Source of the DNA: a virus
Lineage: Duplodnaviria > Heunggongvirae > Uroviricota > Caudoviricetes
Strand: one strand, 5' to 3'
Length of the DNA: 5,071 nt
Virus record (IMG/VR): IMGVR_UViG_2778261182_000002
Location: 1 to 5,071 of that record
Shown here: positions 1 through 5,071 of the stretch, in pieces
Layout of the letters: each line of letters starts with the position of its first letter
How positions within the stretch are numbered: the first letter of the stretch is position 1
The notes under the pieces: generated by a model
Seen by the model: only the letters and a program-made list of their open reading frames with translations
Databases searched by the model: none
Told to the model about the DNA's origin: nothing
Translations under genes and position numbers: made by a program

Positions 1-1962
1 GGACTGGTTGGGGGGGGGCCGGGGGTTGTCATGCTGGGGGCCGCGGCCTGGTACACAATGTATCAGAATCAGGAGCAGGCCAGAGAATCTGCACGCCAGT
101 ATGCCGCAACAATCGACGAAATTCGCCAGAAAACGTCGGCAATGTCGCTTCCTGAAGCGTCAGATAATGAGGAAAAGACGCGGCAGGCACTGGAGGAACA
201 AAATCGCCTGATTAGCGAACAGGAAGGAAAAATTCGCGGACTGAAAAATCAAATTGCTGATTATCAACGTTGGCTTGATGAAAGTTCGCAGAGTGGTTCG
301 GGTGCTGAAATCATCCTTAAAGGGCTTGCCGAAGCAACAAATCAACTGGCAGTTGAACAGTCCCGTCTCACACAAATGCAGGGCAAAGCGCAATCCATTC
401 AGGATGTGCTTGCCGGGCTGGAAGACCGACGGGTGGCGTTGATCCGTCAACAGGCGGCGGAACAAAACAAAGCGTATCAGTCCCTGTTGATCATGAACGG
501 GCAGCATACCGAGTTTAATCGCCTTCTCGGGCTTGGTAATGAATTACTTCAGCAGCGACAGGGGCTGATGAATGTACCGTTACGGCTACCACAGGCAACC
601 CTGGATGATAAACAGCAGACCGCACTGAATAACAGTAAGCGCGAACTGGCTCTGTCCCGCCTGAAGGGGGAAGCGCGTGAGCGTGCCCGACTGGGCTATG
701 CTGCGGATGATCTCGGCTTTGTGGGAGAGGCGTATCAGACAGCCAGACAGAATTATATCAATAACTCACTGGATGCCTGGCGAAATAACCAGGCAAATAA
801 ACCCAAAGCGCATAAAAAGACCGAAGCGGAAAAAACAGAAGATATTTATAAACGGCTGATTAAACAGCAGAAAGAGCAGATAGCACTGGCAGGGCAGAAT
901 ACTGAACTGGCTAAGATGAAATATCAGGTCAGTCAGGGCGAATTATCAACCCTGTCAGAAGCGCAGAAAAAAACGCTTTTACAGAATGCGGCACTCATCG
1001 ACCAGAAAAAGATTCGTGAGCAGCTTGCCGCGTATGAAAGCAGTCTGGCGGACAGTAATGCCAGTGCCCGGGCATCTGACGACGCGCAGTTACTGGGATA
1101 TGGTGAAGGCTCACGGATGCGTGAACGACTCCAGGAAATGTGGAGTATCCGGCAGGAGTTTGAGCAGAAAAATAACGAGCTGCTGAGACAGTATCAGGCC
1201 GGAGAAATTGAAGAAGCCCTGTGGAAACAGGAGAAAGAACTGAATAAAAAATATCTGGAAGAGCGTCTCAGCGATCAGCAGGATTATTATGCAAAGGCCG
1301 ATGCTTTACGTAATAACTGGAATGCCGGACTCCAGGAGGGACTGACCAACTGGGCAGACAGTGCCACCGATTATGCTTCACAGGCGGCAGATGCTGTCGT
1401 TTCCACGATGGACGGGCTGGTATCAAATATTTCCGATGCACTGGCCGGGAATGTTGTGGACTGGAGGAACTGGGGGAGTTCAGTTCTCCGGGAAGTTTCA
1501 AAAATTCTGATGAATGCAGCCATTGTTAACGGACTGAAATCACTCTCCGGTGCCGGAGGGTGGCTTGGTACGGTCGGCGGATGGATTTCGGGGGCAGTGG
1601 CAAACGCAAAAGGTGGTGTTTACACATCGGCAAATCTGAGTGCTTACAGTAACACTATTGTGGATACACCGACGTATTTTGCTTTTGCGAAAGGTGCCGG
1701 GTTGATGGGCGAGGCCGGGCCTGAAGCAATCATGCCACTGACACGGGCAGCGGACGGCTCTCTTGGGGTCAGGGCCATTGGAAATGTGAATGGTGGCGGT
1801 GGATTTGTTTATTCTCCCGTGTATCACATCAGCATTCAGAATCAAGGGAGCAATGGCGAGATAGATGCGCGCTCAGCCAGGGGACTGGTGGATCTGATCG
1901 ACAGCAGGGTTGTGTCAATTATGCAGTCATCGCGTCGGGATGGAGGATTGTACAGTGCCTGA
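1..1962 (+). CDS. H: Tail tape measure protein (lambda gpH-like), 5'-truncated by the window edge; C-terminal ~654 codons present
   Basis: Frame 1 is open from nt 1 (no stop before the ATG at 31 that the ORF track used) to TGA at 1960-1962. The protein has a long Q/E/K/R-rich predicted coiled-coil, then a Gly-rich hydrophobic segment (GLKSLSGAGGWLGTVGGWISGAVANAKGG) and a C-terminal ...RDGGLYSA. From memory it matches the lambda gpH C-terminal half in blocks (NWNAGL~NWMAGL, WADSATD~WEESATD, DGGLYS~DGGLFS) but is diverged overall. Position immediately upstream of M-L-K-I-J fits. Confidence 0.9.
   Translation, partial: GLVGGGPGVVMLGAAAWYTMYQNQEQARESARQYAATIDEIRQKTSAMSLPEASDNEEKTRQALEEQNRLISEQEGKIRGLKNQIADYQRWLDESSQSGSGAEIILKGLAEATNQLAVEQSRLTQMQGKAQSIQDVLAGLEDRRVALIRQQAAEQNKAYQSLLIMNGQHTEFNRLLGLGNELLQQRQGLMNVPLRLPQATLDDKQQTALNNSKRELALSRLKGEARERARLGYAADDLGFVGEAYQTARQNYINNSLDAWRNNQANKPKAHKKTEAEKTEDIYKRLIKQQKEQIALAGQNTELAKMKYQVSQGELSTLSEAQKKTLLQNAALIDQKKIREQLAAYESSLADSNASARASDDAQLLGYGEGSRMRERLQEMWSIRQEFEQKNNELLRQYQAGEIEEALWKQEKELNKKYLEERLSDQQDYYAKADALRNNWNAGLQEGLTNWADSATDYASQAADAVVSTMDGLVSNISDALAGNVVDWRNWGSSVLREVSKILMNAAIVNGLKSLSGAGGWLGTVGGWISGAVANAKGGVYTSANLSAYSNTIVDTPTYFAFAKGAGLMGEAGPEAIMPLTRAADGSLGVRAIGNVNGGGGFVYSPVYHISIQNQGSNGEIDARSARGLVDLIDSRVVSIMQSSRRDGGLYSA
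10..25 (+). repeat. Homopolymeric G tract (G9 at 10-18, then CC, then G5 at 21-25) inside the H coding sequence
   Basis: Read directly: ggttGGGGGGGGGccGGGGGttg. It encodes G-G-G-P-G within a hydrophobic, Gly-rich stretch of the tape measure protein. Confidence 0.9.
1942..1946 (+). promoter_or_regulatory. Shine-Dalgarno (GGAGG) for M, 8-nt spacer to GTG 1955
   Basis: GGAGG read directly at 1942-1946, inside the 3' end of H; spacing is appropriate for the GTG at 1955. Confidence 0.5.
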
Positions 1963-2998: not shown

Positions 2999-3742
2999 AT
3001 GACAGAGACAGAATCAGCGATTCTGGCGCACGCCCGGCGATGTGCGTCAGCGGAGTCGTGCGGCTTCGTGGTGAGAATGCCGGAGGGAGAAAGATATTTT
3101 CCCTGCGTGAATATCTCCGGTGAGCCGGAGGCGTATTTCCGGATGTCGCCGGAGGACTGGCTGCGGGCAGAAATGCAGGGTGAGATTGTGGCGCTGGTCC
3201 ACAGTCATCCCGGTGGTCTGCCCTGGCTGAGTGAGGCTGACCGGCGGCTGCAGGTGCAGAGTGATTTGCCGTGGTGGCTGGTCTGCCGCGGGGAGATTCA
3301 TAAGTTCCGCTGTGTGCCGCATCTCACCGGGCGGCGCTTTGAGCACGGGGTGACGGACTGTTACACGCTGTTCCGGGATGCATACCATCTGGCGGGAATT
3401 GAGATGCCGGATTTTCATCGCGGAGATGACTGGTGGCGTAACGGCCAGAATCTCTATCTTGACAATATGGAGGCGACTGGTTTTTACCGTGTCGCACTGA
3501 CAGAGGCGCAGCCGGGCGATGTGCTGCTGTGCTGTTTTGGTTCATCGGTGCCGAATCATGCCGCCATTTACTGTGGTGATGGCGAGCTGCTGCACCATAT
3601 TCCTGAACAACTGAGCAAACGAGAGAGGTATACCGACAAATGGCAGCGACGCACACACTCCCTCTGGCGTCACCGGGCATGGCGCGCATCTGCCTTTACG
3701 GGGATTTGCAACGATTTGGCCGCCGCATCGACCTTCGTGTGA
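2999..3742 (+). CDS. K: Tail tip assembly protein K (lambda gpK-like): N-terminal JAMM/MPN (JAB) metalloprotease-like domain + C-terminal NlpC/P60-like Cys/His domain, 247 aa as called
   Basis: ATG 2999 lies 4 nt after the L stop; stop TGA 3740-3742. A JAMM-type motif H-S-H-P-x7-S-x2-D is encoded at 3200-3241, with candidate upstream Glu (E19/E29/E31). The NlpC/P60-like part has Cys121 (TDCYTLF, nt 3359-3361) and downstream His (NHAAIY, LLHH). An internal in-frame ATG at 3143 would give 199 aa but would cut off the N-terminal part of the JAB domain, so 2999 is preferred. Confidence 0.88.
   Translation: MTETESAILAHARRCASAESCGFVVRMPEGERYFPCVNISGEPEAYFRMSPEDWLRAEMQGEIVALVHSHPGGLPWLSEADRRLQVQSDLPWWLVCRGEIHKFRCVPHLTGRRFEHGVTDCYTLFRDAYHLAGIEMPDFHRGDDWWRNGQNLYLDNMEATGFYRVALTEAQPGDVLLCCFGSSVPNHAAIYCGDGELLHHIPEQLSKRERYTDKWQRRTHSLWRHRAWRASAFTGICNDLAAASTFV
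3624..3628 (+). promoter_or_regulatory. Shine-Dalgarno (AGAGG) for I, embedded in K coding sequence, 11-nt spacer to ATG 3640
   Basis: GAGAGAGG read at 3621-3628, upstream of the first ATG of the I frame. Confidence 0.45.
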
Positions 3743-4287
3743 AAACGGGGGCCGAAGCCATCCGGGCGCTGGCCACACAGCTCCCGGCGTTTCGCCAGAA
3801 ACTGAATGACGGCTGGTATCAGGTGCGCATTGCCGGGCGTGATGCAGGTGAAACCGAATTATCTGCCCGTCTTAATGAGCCGCTGGCAAATGGTGCCGTG
3901 ATCCACATAGTTCCGCGTCTGGCGGGTGCCAAAAGTGGCGGTGTGTTTCAGGCGGTGCTGGGTGCGGCGCTGATTGCGGTGGCATGGTGGAACCCTGTGG
4001 GCTGGCTGGGGGCCGCGGCTGTATCGGGTATGTATGCGGCAGGGGCCAGTATGATCCTGGGCGGTGTGGCGCAGATGCTGGCACCGAAAGCCAGGACGCC
4101 CACGGCAGCCAGTACAGATAACGGCAAACAGAACACCTATTTCTCCTCACTGGATAACATGGTTGCCCAGGGCAATGTTCTGCCTGTTCTGTACGGTGAA
4201 ATGCGCGTGGGGTCGCGGGTGGTATCTCAGGAGATCAGCACGGCAGATGAAGGTGATGGTGGTCAGGTTGTGGTGATTGGTCGCTGA
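3640..4287 (+). CDS. I: Tail tip assembly protein I (lambda gpI-like): N-terminal ubiquitin-like (beta-grasp) domain ending in Gly-Gly, then a Gly/Ala-rich hydrophobic segment and a C-terminal domain; 215 aa
   Basis: Frame 1 opens after TGA 3604-3606; the first ATG is 3640 and no alternative start codon lies upstream in frame. Stop TGA 4285-4287. The product (MAATHTLPLASPGMARICLYGDLQRFGRRIDLRV...IHIVPRLAGAKSGG / VFQAVLGAALIAVAWW... / ...NTYFSSLDNMVAQGNVLPVLYGEMRVGSRVVSQEISTADEGDGGQVVVIGR) matches lambda gpI from memory. The Gly-Gly is encoded at 3937-3942. Confidence 0.88.
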   Translation: MAATHTLPLASPGMARICLYGDLQRFGRRIDLRVKTGAEAIRALATQLPAFRQKLNDGWYQVRIAGRDAGETELSARLNEPLANGAVIHIVPRLAGAKSGGVFQAVLGAALIAVAWWNPVGWLGAAAVSGMYAAGASMILGGVAQMLAPKARTPTAASTDNGKQNTYFSSLDNMVAQGNVLPVLYGEMRVGSRVVSQEISTADEGDGGQVVVIGR

Positions 4288-4305
4288 TGAAAAATGTTTT
4301 ATGTG

Positions 4306-4333
4306 AAACCGCCTCCGGGCGGTTTTGTCGTTT
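4306..4333 (+). terminator. Candidate intrinsic-terminator-like hairpin in the I-J intergenic gap: stem AAACCGCC / GGCGGTTT, loop TCCG, followed by a T-rich run (TTTTGTCGTTT)
   Basis: Read directly: 4306-4313 AAACCGCC, 4314-4317 TCCG, 4318-4325 GGCGGTTT, then TGTCGTTT. The GC core is only 5 bp, so any terminator would be weak; it may instead be a stabilising or processing structure within the late transcript. Confidence 0.35.
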
Positions 4334-4347: not shown

Positions 4348-5071
4348 ATGGGTAAAGGCAGCAGTAAGGGGCATACCCCGCGCGAAGCGAAGGACAACCT
4401 GAAGTCCACGCAGTTGCTGAGTGTGATTGATGCCATCAGCGAAGGGCCGGTTGAAGGTCCGGTGGATGGATTAAAAAGCGTGCTGCTGAACAGTACGCCG
4501 GTGCTGGACAGTGAGGGGAATACCAATATCTCCGGCGTCACGGTGGTGTTCCGGGCAGGCGAGCAGGAGCAGACACCGCCGGAGGGATTTGAATCATCAG
4601 GTTCCGAGACGGTGCTGGGTACGGAAGTGAAATATGACACGCCGATCACCCGGACCATCACGTCTGCAAACATCGACCGTCTGCGCTTTACCTTCGGTGT
4701 GCAGGCACTGGTGGAAACCACCTCAAAGGGGGACAGGAATCCATCGGAAGTCCGCCTGCTGGTTCAGATCCAGCGTAACGGTGGCTGGGTGACGGAAAAA
4801 GACATCACCATTAAAGGCAAAACCACCTCACAGTATCTGGCCTCGGTGGTGGTGGGTAACCTGCCGCCGCGCCCGTTCAATATCCGGATGCGCAGGATGA
4901 CGCCGGACAGCACCACAGACCAGCTGCAGAACAAAACGCTCTGGTCGTCATACACCGAAATTATCGATGTGAAACAGTGCTACCCGAACACGGCACTGGT
5001 CGGCGTGCAGGTGGACTCGGAGCAGTTCGGCAGCCAGCAGGTGAGCCGTAATTATCATCTGCGCGGGCGTA
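4348..5071 (+). CDS. J: Tail tip / host specificity protein J (lambda gpJ-like central tail fiber), 3'-truncated by the window edge; N-terminal 241 codons present
   Basis: ATG 4348 with a GGAG 8 nt upstream. Frame 1 is open to the end of the window; it is absent from the ORF track only because no stop lies in the window. My translation (MGKGSSKGHTPREAKDNLKSTQLLSVIDAISEGPVEGPVDGLKSVLLNSTPVLD...NIRMRRMTPDSTTDQLQNKTLWSSYTEIIDVKQCYPNTALVGVQVDSEQFGSQQVSRNYHLRGR) matches the lambda gpJ N-terminus as I recall it. Confidence 0.92.
   Translation, partial: MGKGSSKGHTPREAKDNLKSTQLLSVIDAISEGPVEGPVDGLKSVLLNSTPVLDSEGNTNISGVTVVFRAGEQEQTPPEGFESSGSETVLGTEVKYDTPITRTITSANIDRLRFTFGVQALVETTSKGDRNPSEVRLLVQIQRNGGWVTEKDITIKGKTTSQYLASVVVGNLPPRPFNIRMRRMTPDSTTDQLQNKTLWSSYTEIIDVKQCYPNTALVGVQVDSEQFGSQQVSRNYHLRGR

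What the first reader, a model, noticed from the sequence alone, without database searches (positions are those of the whole stretch)
2999..4287. K-I pair encodes a JAMM/MPN protease plus NlpC/P60 domain next to a ubiquitin-like protein ending in Gly-Gly
Seen in sequence: K carries an H-x-H-x7-S-x2-D JAMM-type motif (nt 3200-3241) and an NlpC/P60-like Cys/His set (Cys at 3359-3361; His in NHAAIY and LLHH). I has an N-terminal region of about 90 residues with a pattern consistent with a beta-grasp fold, ending in A-G-A-K-S-G-G (GG at 3937-3942), immediately followed by a Gly/Ala-rich hydrophobic segment. Established knowledge: comparative genomics (Iyer, Burroughs and Aravind, 2006) predicted that lambda gpI is ubiquitin-like and gpK is a JAB plus NlpC fusion, implying a ubiquitin-like processing or conjugation step in tail-tip assembly. 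As far as I know, the biochemical roles of the two K active sites and of the I diglycine remain poorly defined. Inference: K may process I at the Gly-Gly, or use I as a tag or chaperone during J/L/tip assembly, with the NlpC/P60 domain acting as a peptidase or transferase rather than a cell-wall hydrolase. This is the most system-like content in the window.
Basis: partly seen in the sequence, partly recalled or inferred. Interest (0 to 1): 0.62.

Follow-up and report, generated by a model that had tools for sequence, protein, structure and literature searches.

The report
Lambda tail genes K and I
These are the phage lambda tail-tip genes K and I: a two-headed protease next to a tail-plug protein made with a removable ubiquitin-like cap, a pairing predicted in 2006 and now being confirmed experimentally, so the finding is real but already known.

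Summary
The window is a lambda-type tail module, H-M-L-K-I-J, 96% identical to Escherichia phage vB_EcoS-640R1.

K (2999-3742, 247 aa) has a Prok-JAB domain and an NlpC/P60 domain, both above Pfam cut-offs. It carries E19...H68-x-H70-x7-S78-x2-D81 and C121/H187/H199. Each of these residues is at least 92% conserved in 107 homologues below 65% identity. A K model matches Rpn11, CSN5 and PfJAMM1, and also MepS and CwlO.

The interpretation repeats Iyer, Burroughs and Aravind (2006). Newer work supports it:
- Cryo-EM finds only the part of gpI after the ubiquitin-like domain in virions.
- gpK is absent from virions.
- An F-pyocin gpI homologue loses its N-terminus on maturation.

No E1 or E2 gene is present, so conjugation is unsupported. 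The substrate of the conserved NlpC/P60 site is still unknown. Only the final Gly is widely conserved, not the Gly-Gly pair.

The parts
2999..3742 (+). Gene K, tail tip assembly protein K, 247 aa
   Evidence: ORF and translation. 232/247 identical to the intact lambda K of PV340536.1. Annotated as K in ON470612.1.
3008..3313 (+). K aa 4-105: JAB/MPN+ (JAMM) metalloprotease domain
3053..3055 (+). JAMM catalytic Glu19 (AESCG)
   Evidence: Glu in 102 of 107 diverse homologues.
3200..3241 (+). JAMM zinc motif H68-S-H70-x7-S78-x2-D81
   Evidence: H68 97%, H70 96%, S78 92% and D81 98% conserved.
3329..3670 (+). K aa 111-224: NlpC/P60 (C40, papain-like) domain
3359..3361 (+). NlpC/P60 nucleophile Cys121 (TDCYT)
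   Evidence: Cys in 102 of 107 homologues, with the preceding Asp in 103 of 107.
3557..3559 (+). NlpC/P60 His187 (NHAAIY)
   Evidence: 96% conserved.
3593..3598 (+). NlpC/P60 third residue His199, plus His200 (LLHH)
   Evidence: 96% and 93% conserved.
3640..4287 (+). Gene I, tail tip assembly / plug protein I precursor, 215 aa
   Evidence: ORF. E 2.6e-107 to lambda gpI chains 8iyk_I, 8iyl, 8k35 and 8xcg. 178/215 identical to lambda gpI.
3640..3742 (+). 103-nt out-of-frame overlap of K and I; I is in the -1 frame relative to K
   Evidence: Lambda has the same overlap. No X XXY YYZ slippery site in the K frame.
3679..3942 (+). I aa 14-101: ubiquitin-like beta-grasp domain (ThiS/MoaD type)
3937..3942 (+). 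G100-G101, end of the ubiquitin-like domain and predicted K cleavage site (after G101)
   Evidence: Terminal Gly kept in 13 of 15 diverse phages and in both F-pyocin homologues. Lambda gpI is resolved from residue 101 on in the closed tail (PMC11101478).
3943..4089 (+). I aa 102-150: hydrophobic Gly/Ala-rich helices, equivalent to lambda H1/H2
   Evidence: Kyte-Doolittle peak 1.57 and 41% Gly+Ala. Helices at 102-117 and 122-127 in the model, at low confidence. Predicted transmembrane in lambda (PMC11101478).
4018..4284 (+). I aa 127-215: structural plug domain that sits in the tail-tip lumen (lambda gpI 135-223)
   Evidence: E 7e-44 to 9e7m chains. 76/81 identical to lambda over the last 81 aa. 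Structure described in PMC10721106.
2296..2994 (+). Gene L (context): hub protein that I and J assemble with
   Evidence: Pfam Phage_tail_L 1.6e-99.
4348..5071 (+). 5' part of gene J (context): central tail fibre that I binds by beta-sheet augmentation
   Evidence: Pfam FNIII-A_GpJ 5e-42. PMC10721106.
31..1962 (+). 3' part of gene H, the tape measure (context); its C-terminal coiled coil rests on the I trimer
   Evidence: Pfam Phage_HK97_TLTM and Tape_meas_lam_C. PMC10721106 and PMC12617516.

Best explanation
The region holds the lambda-type tail-tip genes K and I.

Gene I encodes a precursor with three parts. The first is an N-terminal ubiquitin-like beta-grasp domain (aa 14-101) ending in Gly-Gly. 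The second is a hydrophobic Gly/Ala-rich helical stretch. The third is a C-terminal domain that, as a trimer, plugs the lumen of the tail tip and holds the C-terminus of the tape measure.

Gene K encodes a non-structural assembly enzyme with two active sites: a JAMM zinc metalloprotease of the deubiquitinase type, and an NlpC/P60 cysteine peptidase.

Most likely order of events:
1. Precursor I joins the J-L tip complex. Until then the ubiquitin-like domain keeps the hydrophobic helices soluble and blocks later steps.
2. The JAMM domain of K docks on the ubiquitin-like domain and cuts the peptide bond after Gly101.
3. The ubiquitin-like domain and K leave.
4. I(102-215) stays in the virion, and the tip can then take up tape measure, M and tube.

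Shown here: gene identities, both K folds, both sets of conserved catalytic residues, the beta-grasp fold, the conserved terminal Gly and the lack of E1/E2. Taken from papers: only the post-ubiquitin-like part of gpI is in virions, gpK is absent from virions, and gpK is reported to cleave gpI. Inferred: that the JAMM site rather than the Cys site makes the cut, the exact bond, and the chaperone or checkpoint role. The substrate of the NlpC/P60 site is unknown.
For: Synteny H-M-L-K-I-J and 96% DNA identity to a lambda-like phage.

K: Prok-JAB and NLPC_P60 both exceed their gathering scores. A complete E...HxHx7Sx2D motif and Cys-His-His are present. Each of these residues is 92-98% conserved in 107 homologues below 65% identity, and all are intact in 14 distant phages from gamma- and beta-proteobacterial and cyanobacterial hosts. 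The K model matches PfJAMM1 (including its SAMP2 complex, 5lda), Rpn11, CSN5, BRCC36, BilC and Cap3. There is also a weak NCBIfam desampylase match.

Literature: prediction in PMC1779556. gpI 135-223, 134-222, or from residue 101 on, is seen in virions, with the N-terminal domain never seen. gpK is not in virions. The PA0640 N-terminus is present in stalled tips and absent from mature F-pyocin, and a PA0639 (gpK homologue) deletion gives tip-less tubes. The Davidson laboratory result is reported in PMC12908700.
Against: The experimental statement that gpK cleaves gpI reached me only as a meeting summary, with no data or methods. It does not say which active site cuts or where.

The F-pyocin preprint found that PA0640 expressed alone in E. 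coli loses its N-terminus to unknown host proteases, so removal need not depend strictly on K.

The I model is of low overall confidence (mean pLDDT 47).

Salmonella phage S137 keeps an intact JAMM site, but its ubiquitin-like domain ends in ...EGAISAA with no Gly.

Nothing here explains why a second, equally conserved active site exists.
Confidence: 0.85

Rival explanations
1. The papain-like NlpC/P60 domain, not the JAMM domain, removes the ubiquitin-like domain from I. The JAMM domain would then only bind the ubiquitin-like domain or act on something else.
Against: The closest sequence relatives of the domain are cell-wall endopeptidases (MepS, CwlO, LytE), not ubiquitin-like proteases. JAMM enzymes that cut after the C-terminal Gly of MoaD/SAMP-type proteins are well documented, and K matches them best. 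The meeting report calls the relevant K domain 'deubiquitinating'. The similarity to C39 peptidases is generic to the papain fold.
Confidence: 0.07
2. The ubiquitin-like domain of I is a true modifier. After exposure of Gly101 it would be conjugated to a tail protein such as J, L or H, and K would act as ligase or deconjugase.
For: I has a beta-grasp fold with a C-terminal Gly, as in SAMP, Urm1 and ubiquitin. NlpC/P60 folds can act as acyltransferases in other families (general knowledge).
Against: No E1 or E2 domain appears in any of the six ORFs of the window, nor in the annotated neighbourhoods of 13 distant loci. No extra density or ubiquitin-like peptides are reported in lambda virions.
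Confidence: 0.03
3. The JAMM domain of K is, also or mainly, a counter-defence enzyme. It would strip host ubiquitin-like proteins attached to the central tail fibre by Bil-type defence systems.
Against: K and a ubiquitin-like I co-occur across very diverse phages and in F-pyocins, which are not targets of phage defence. K is essential for tip assembly without any Bil system (for PA0639; classical lambda genetics as cited). The cognate substrate lies in the neighbouring gene.
Confidence: 0.08
4. The NlpC/P60 domain of K is a virion-borne peptidoglycan hydrolase used during DNA injection.
For: The best sequence and fold matches are murein endopeptidases such as MepS, CwlO and LytE, and there is a weak match to TIGR02219, a phage cell wall peptidase model. 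The enzyme lambda uses to cross the cell wall is unidentified (PMC11101478).
Against: gpK was not detected in lambda virions by mass spectrometry and is not resolved in any tail structure. PA0639 is absent from mature F-pyocin. K has no signal peptide or obvious route to the periplasm.
Confidence: 0.1

Closest known systems
Phage lambda gpK and gpI (tail tip assembly proteins K and I)
   Same: Same gene order H-M-L-K-I-J and the same 103-nt K/I overlap. K is 232/247 identical to intact lambda K and I is 178/215 identical. The AGAKSGG|VFQ junction and all catalytic residues are identical.
   Different: The hydrophobic stretch after the cleavage site is 8 aa shorter and only 14/33 identical. The RefSeq lambda K entry is 199 aa and lacks the first 48 aa because of a 1-nt discrepancy. 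The window has the intact 247-aa form.
'Phage tail assembly associated Ub' system of Iyer, Burroughs and Aravind 2006 (TAPI/TAPK/TAPJ; PMC1779556)
   Same: Exactly this architecture: a ubiquitin-like domain, a Gly-rich linker and a C-terminal domain in I; JAB plus NlpC/P60 in K; J next door. The paper predicts JAB cleavage at the last Gly.
   Different: Nothing differs in architecture. [quoted passage not shown]
F-type pyocin PA0639 / PA0640 (PDB 25vf, 9l9p)
   Same: PA0640-type proteins align with I over aa 11-201 and share ...G-S-K-x-x-G|L-F-Q-x-V-L-G-A-A. The N-terminus is removed on maturation, and the K homologue is needed for tip formation and is absent from particles.
   Different: It is a bacteriocin, not a phage, with low sequence similarity (phmmer E 2.4e-21 and 1.8e-15). 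The protease responsible has not been identified there.
Archaeal and bacterial JAMM enzymes acting on MoaD/ThiS/SAMP-type proteins (PfJAMM1-SAMP2 5lda, HvJAMM1 desampylase)
   Same: The same pairing of a minimal JAMM domain with a ThiS/MoaD-like beta-grasp protein that ends in Gly. Best fold matches on both sides.
   Different: Those systems include an E1-like activator and serve conjugation or sulfur transfer. Here the ubiquitin-like domain is fused in cis to a structural protein, a peptide bond is cut once, and the useful product is the C-terminal fragment.
NlpC/P60 (C40) cell-wall endopeptidases MepS/Spr, CwlO and LytE
   Different: K is cytoplasmic, fused to a JAMM domain, and not found in virions. 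No cell-wall activity has been shown.
Phage T5 baseplate hub pb3 plug domain
   Same: The tripod plug occupies the same position in the tip lumen as the I C-terminal trimer. It is hydrophobic and proposed to insert in the outer membrane (PMC10721106).
   Different: In T5 the plug is an insertion within one large protein, with no ubiquitin-like domain and no K-type protease.

Membership tests
JAMM/MPN+ metalloprotease (Pfam Prok-JAB PF14464) | Profile match above the curated cut-off | tested here: met
   50.4 bits against a cut-off of 25, aa 4-105.
JAMM/MPN+ metalloprotease (Pfam Prok-JAB PF14464) | Complete E...H-x-H-x7-S-x2-D zinc and catalytic motif | tested here: met
   E19, H68, H70, S78 and D81. 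92-98% conserved in 107 homologues.
JAMM/MPN+ metalloprotease (Pfam Prok-JAB PF14464) | MPN fold | tested here: met
JAMM/MPN+ metalloprotease (Pfam Prok-JAB PF14464) | Zinc-dependent cleavage after the C-terminal Gly of a ubiquitin-like domain | not testable with these tools
   Only a meeting report says that gpK cleaves gpI (PMC12908700).
NlpC/P60 (peptidase C40, PF00877) | Profile match above the curated cut-off | tested here: met
   47.9 bits against a cut-off of 23, aa 111-224, covering the full model 1-105.
NlpC/P60 (peptidase C40, PF00877) | Cys nucleophile, His and a third polar residue in canonical order | tested here: met
   C121, H187 and H199. 95-96% conserved.
NlpC/P60 (peptidase C40, PF00877) | Papain-like NlpC/P60 fold | tested here: met
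NlpC/P60 (peptidase C40, PF00877) | Hydrolysis of peptidoglycan stem peptides | not testable with these tools
Absence of gpK from virions argues against a role at infection.
Ubiquitin-like beta-grasp, ThiS/MoaD type (Pfam Lambda_tail_I PF06805) | Profile match above the curated cut-off | tested here: met
   86.9 bits against a cut-off of 23.8, aa 14-97.
Ubiquitin-like beta-grasp, ThiS/MoaD type (Pfam Lambda_tail_I PF06805) | Beta-grasp fold | tested here: met
Ubiquitin-like beta-grasp, ThiS/MoaD type (Pfam Lambda_tail_I PF06805) | Gly at the C-terminal end of the domain | tested here: met
   G100-G101. The last Gly is present in 13 of 15 diverse phages and the penultimate Gly in 6 of 15.
Ubiquitin-type conjugation system (modifier plus E1/E2) | An E1-like adenylating enzyme, and usually an E2, encoded with the modifier | tested here: not met
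   The six ORFs give only tape-measure, M, L, JAB+NlpC, Lambda_tail_I and J families. None is annotated in 13 distant loci.
Lambda gpK/gpI orthologues | Position between L and J in a lambda-type tail module, with high identity to lambda | tested here: met

The most novel reading that the evidence does not exclude
The NlpC/P60 active site of K is as strongly conserved as the JAMM site. It may carry out a second, still unrecognised maturation step in siphophage tail assembly. Candidates are the unexplained cleavage of the tape measure (gpH to gpH* plus gpHC) or another cut in the tip complex. K would then be a dual protease timing two checkpoints. Separately, the JAMM site may double as a counter-defence against Bil-type ubiquitin-like tagging of the tail fibre.
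Probability: 0.15. Interest if true: 0.55.

Novelty: already known. Interest (0 to 1): 0.2.

Why it matters
This pair is one of the simplest known ubiquitin-like-plus-deubiquitinase units. The ubiquitin-like domain is used once, in cis, as a removable cap that times the assembly of a virus tail.

It is widespread: an I homologue occurs in 1729 of 50,697 phage records searched here, and also in F-type pyocins. It bears on the origin of ubiquitin signalling, on engineering tailocins and phage tails, and possibly on the arms race with bacterial ubiquitin-like defence systems.

For this window nothing is new. The genes are close relatives of lambda K and I, and the idea was published in 2006. The only open point is the substrate of the conserved NlpC/P60 site.

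Tried and rejected
1. Tape measure as a second K substrate. The window's H fragment has ANAKGG|VY at aa 527, 114 aa from its end, which resembles AGAKSGG|VF in I. Lambda gpH has no K-x(0,1)-G-G motif at all, so I treat the resemblance as chance in Gly/Ala-rich sequence.

2. Programmed -1 frameshift joining K to I. I lies in the -1 frame over a 103-nt overlap, and K-I fusion proteins exist in databases (P0016, P0032, P0101, P0138). There is no X XXY YYZ slippery site anywhere in the K frame, and the fusions are clusters of only one or two sequences. They are probably sequencing errors or pseudogenes.

3. The search for related loci with the I alignment in viral contigs returned only loci 96-100% identical. 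These were useless for diversity, though I used them to count K alleles. Diversity came instead from the representative search and from tblastn of phage genomes.

4. Search for E1/E2 partners: none found.

5. Search for a full paper or preprint on gpK cleaving gpI: five literature searches found only the meeting summary.

6. No solved gpK structure exists in the PDB copy searched.

7. The consensus terminator scan did not flag the I-J hairpin. Folding did show it.

Full report
**What the window is.** The 5071-nt window is a lambda-type tail module. Megablast finds 96% identity over 98% of its length to Escherichia phage vB_EcoS-640R1, and weaker matches to many Stx-converting and lambdoid phages. 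That record annotates, in order, tape measure H, M, L, K, I and J. Pfam on the six window ORFs agrees:
- Phage_HK97_TLTM plus Tape_meas_lam_C (H fragment, 31-1962)
- Phage_min_tail (M, 1955-2296)
- Phage_tail_L (L, 2296-2994)
- Prok-JAB plus NLPC_P60 (K, 2999-3742)
- Lambda_tail_I (I, 3640-4287)
- FNIII-A_GpJ (J, from 4348)

No E1, E2 or other enzyme family is present.

**Checking the observation.** A script confirmed every coordinate.
- Nt 3200-3241 encode HSHPGGLPWLSEAD (H68-x-H70-x7-S78-x2-D81). This is the only match to that pattern in all six frames.
- The upstream glutamate is E19.
- Nt 3359-3361 are the Cys121 codon.
- NHAAIY gives His187 and LLHH gives His199/His200.
- Nt 3937-3942 encode G100-G101 of I, within AGAKSGG.
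- The next 49 residues are 41% Gly+Ala and strongly hydrophobic.

The two K domains and the I domain all exceed Pfam's curated cut-offs, with E-values of 2.5e-13, 1.4e-12 and 1.3e-24.

**Conservation.** An exhaustive HMMER search of 1.84 billion cluster representatives found 2699 K relatives. I took 107 of them that are of full two-domain length (215-285 aa) and below 65% identity to the window K, and counted conservation at each catalytic position:

| Site | Residue | Conserved |
|---|---|---|
| JAMM | E19 | 95% |
| JAMM | H68 | 97% |
| JAMM | H70 | 96% |
| JAMM | S78 | 92% |
| JAMM | D81 | 98% |
| NlpC/P60 | C121 | 95% |
| NlpC/P60 | H187 | 96% |
| NlpC/P60 | H199 | 96% |

Both active sites are therefore under selection, and neither looks like a dead domain.

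A tblastn search with I found homologues in 1729 phage records, 1409 of which cover at least 80% of the protein. I then fetched 14 distant loci: Mannheimia, Ralstonia, Pseudomonas, Burkholderia, HK75, three Klebsiella and Escherichia groups, Moraxella, a T1-like Shigella phage, Vibrio, Stenotrophomonas, Salmonella S137 and the cyanophage S-CBS4. All have a two-domain K with intact motifs.

In I, the conserved junction reads G-x-K-x-x-G followed by [VLI]-F-Q-x-V-L-G-A-A. The final Gly is present in 13 of 15 sequences, but the penultimate Gly in only 6 of 15. The two F-pyocin homologues in the PDB read GSKQSG|LFQ and GSKTGG|LFQ.

**What is already known.**
- Iyer, Burroughs and Aravind (2006) identified the ubiquitin-like domain in 'TAPI' and the JAB plus NlpC/P60 domains in 'TAPK'. 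[quoted passage not shown]
- Cryo-EM of lambda then showed a gpI trimer in the tip lumen, built from residues 135-223 (PMC10721106) or 134-222 (PMC12617516). One account has it resolved from residue 101 onward in the closed state (PMC11101478). The N-terminal domain was never seen.
- gpK was not detected in virions by mass spectrometry.
- In the F-type pyocin, the N-terminus of PA0640 (the gpI homologue) is present in stalled tips and absent from mature particles. Deleting PA0639 (the gpK homologue) gives tip-less tubes (bioRxiv 10.64898/2026.02.24.707460).

I found no full paper on this last result in five searches.

**Mechanism.** The best-supported reading has four steps.
1. I is made as a precursor. 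Its ubiquitin-like domain masks or solubilises the hydrophobic helices and blocks later assembly steps.
2. Precursor I joins J and L.
3. The JAMM site of K cuts after Gly101.
4. The ubiquitin-like domain and K leave, and I(102-215) remains as the plug that holds the tape-measure C-terminus.

The identity and anatomy are shown here. The cleavage itself rests on the literature. Two points are inferred: the assignment of the cut to the JAMM site rather than the Cys site, and the chaperone or checkpoint role.

Conjugation is not supported, because no E1 or E2 is encoded. The role of the NlpC/P60 site is open. A cell-wall role at infection fits its closest relatives but not the absence of K from virions. 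A second proteolytic step in assembly is possible but untested.

**Leads that failed.** The H fragment has ANAKGG|VY, which resembles the I junction, but lambda gpH has no such motif. K-I fusion proteins exist in databases, and I lies in the -1 frame of K over 103 nt. The K frame has no slippery heptamer, and the fusions are clusters of only one or two sequences.

**Side observations.** The lambda reference sequence (J02459/NC_001416) lacks one base that is present in this window (G at nt 3133) and in independently sequenced lambda genomes and derivatives. As a result the RefSeq K is 199 aa and lacks the first 48 residues, including the JAMM glutamate. PV340536.1 annotates K at 744 nt, the same length as here. 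Of 81 related loci, 73 have the intact form and none has the gapped form. Several GenBank records also start I at an internal GTG, which removes the first strands of the ubiquitin-like domain. A 2020 review that used a 199-aa K and a 190-aa I saw only the peptidase domain (PMC7291167).

**Verdict.** Novelty: already known. Interest: low. The only residual question is what the conserved NlpC/P60 site does.

Noticed in passing
window nt 3133 (K codon 45); L096 (lambda NC_001416) 3620-3860: The lambda reference sequence (J02459/NC_001416) has GGAGGC-TATTTCC where this window has GGAGGCGTATTTCC. The independently sequenced lambda genome PV340536.1 annotates an intact 744-nt K, and LC730321.1, DE3, imm21 and imm434 span one extra base across the same stretch. 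The missing base splits K, so RefSeq and UniProt lambda K is 199 aa and lacks aa 1-48, including the JAMM Glu. The intact lambda K is 247 aa. Of 81 related loci, 73 have the intact form and none has the gapped form. This is probably an error or private variant in the 1982 sequence, and it has misled later domain analyses (PMC7291167).
   Followed up: yes
window 3640 versus 3739 (start of I); L001 5267; L097 2055: GenBank records ON470612.1 and PV340536.1 start I at an internal GTG that overlaps the K stop, giving 182 and 190 aa. This removes the first two strands of the ubiquitin-like domain. Distant homologues all start a few residues before strand 1, which supports the upstream ATG at 3640 (or the one at 3679).
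   Followed up: partly
L093 (Salmonella phage S137) 2665-3192: I is annotated as 148 aa, but a GTG 81 nt upstream restores a full ubiquitin-like domain that overlaps K. The domain ends in ...VVEGAISAA with no Gly, although the K of this phage has an intact JAMM motif. This is an exception to the conserved terminal Gly.
   Followed up: partly
window 4301-4331 (between I and J): A G+C-rich hairpin, ACCGCCTCCGGGCGGT, is followed by TTTGTCGTTT. Its predicted free energy is -16.2 kcal/mol and its z-score is -3.4 against shuffles. It looks like an intrinsic terminator inside the late operon. HK75 has annotated terminators on both sides of its I gene.
   Followed up: partly
window 3943-4041 (I aa 102-134): The hydrophobic stretch just after the cleavage site is by far the most divergent part of I compared with lambda. 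It is 14/33 identical and 8 aa shorter, whereas the flanking ubiquitin-like domain is 87% identical and the plug domain 94%.
   Followed up: no
window 1594-1614 (H fragment aa 522-528): ANAKGG|VY in the tape measure, 114 aa from its C-terminus, resembles the I junction AGAKSGG|VF. Lambda gpH has no such motif, so this is judged to be chance.
   Followed up: yes
P0016, P0032, P0101, P0138 (database proteins): Database proteins of 348-428 aa carry JAB, NlpC/P60 and Lambda_tail_I domains together. This is consistent with a -1 shift inside the 103-nt K/I overlap. Their clusters hold only one or two sequences, and there is no slippery heptamer in the K frame, so they are probably sequencing errors or pseudogenes.
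   Followed up: partly
L089 3095-3583; L090 840-2433; L086 2214-2438; L088 1740-2398; L082 2373-2498: The K-I-J block is often interrupted in distant phages. Shigella phage Sd1 has an HNH homing endonuclease between I and J. Vibrio P3 has about 1.7 kb between K and I, holding anti-repressor-like and KilA-N genes on the opposite strand plus a zinc-ribbon gene on the K/I strand. HK75, Moraxella Mcat2 and Mannheimia have small inserted ORFs between K and I.
   Followed up: no
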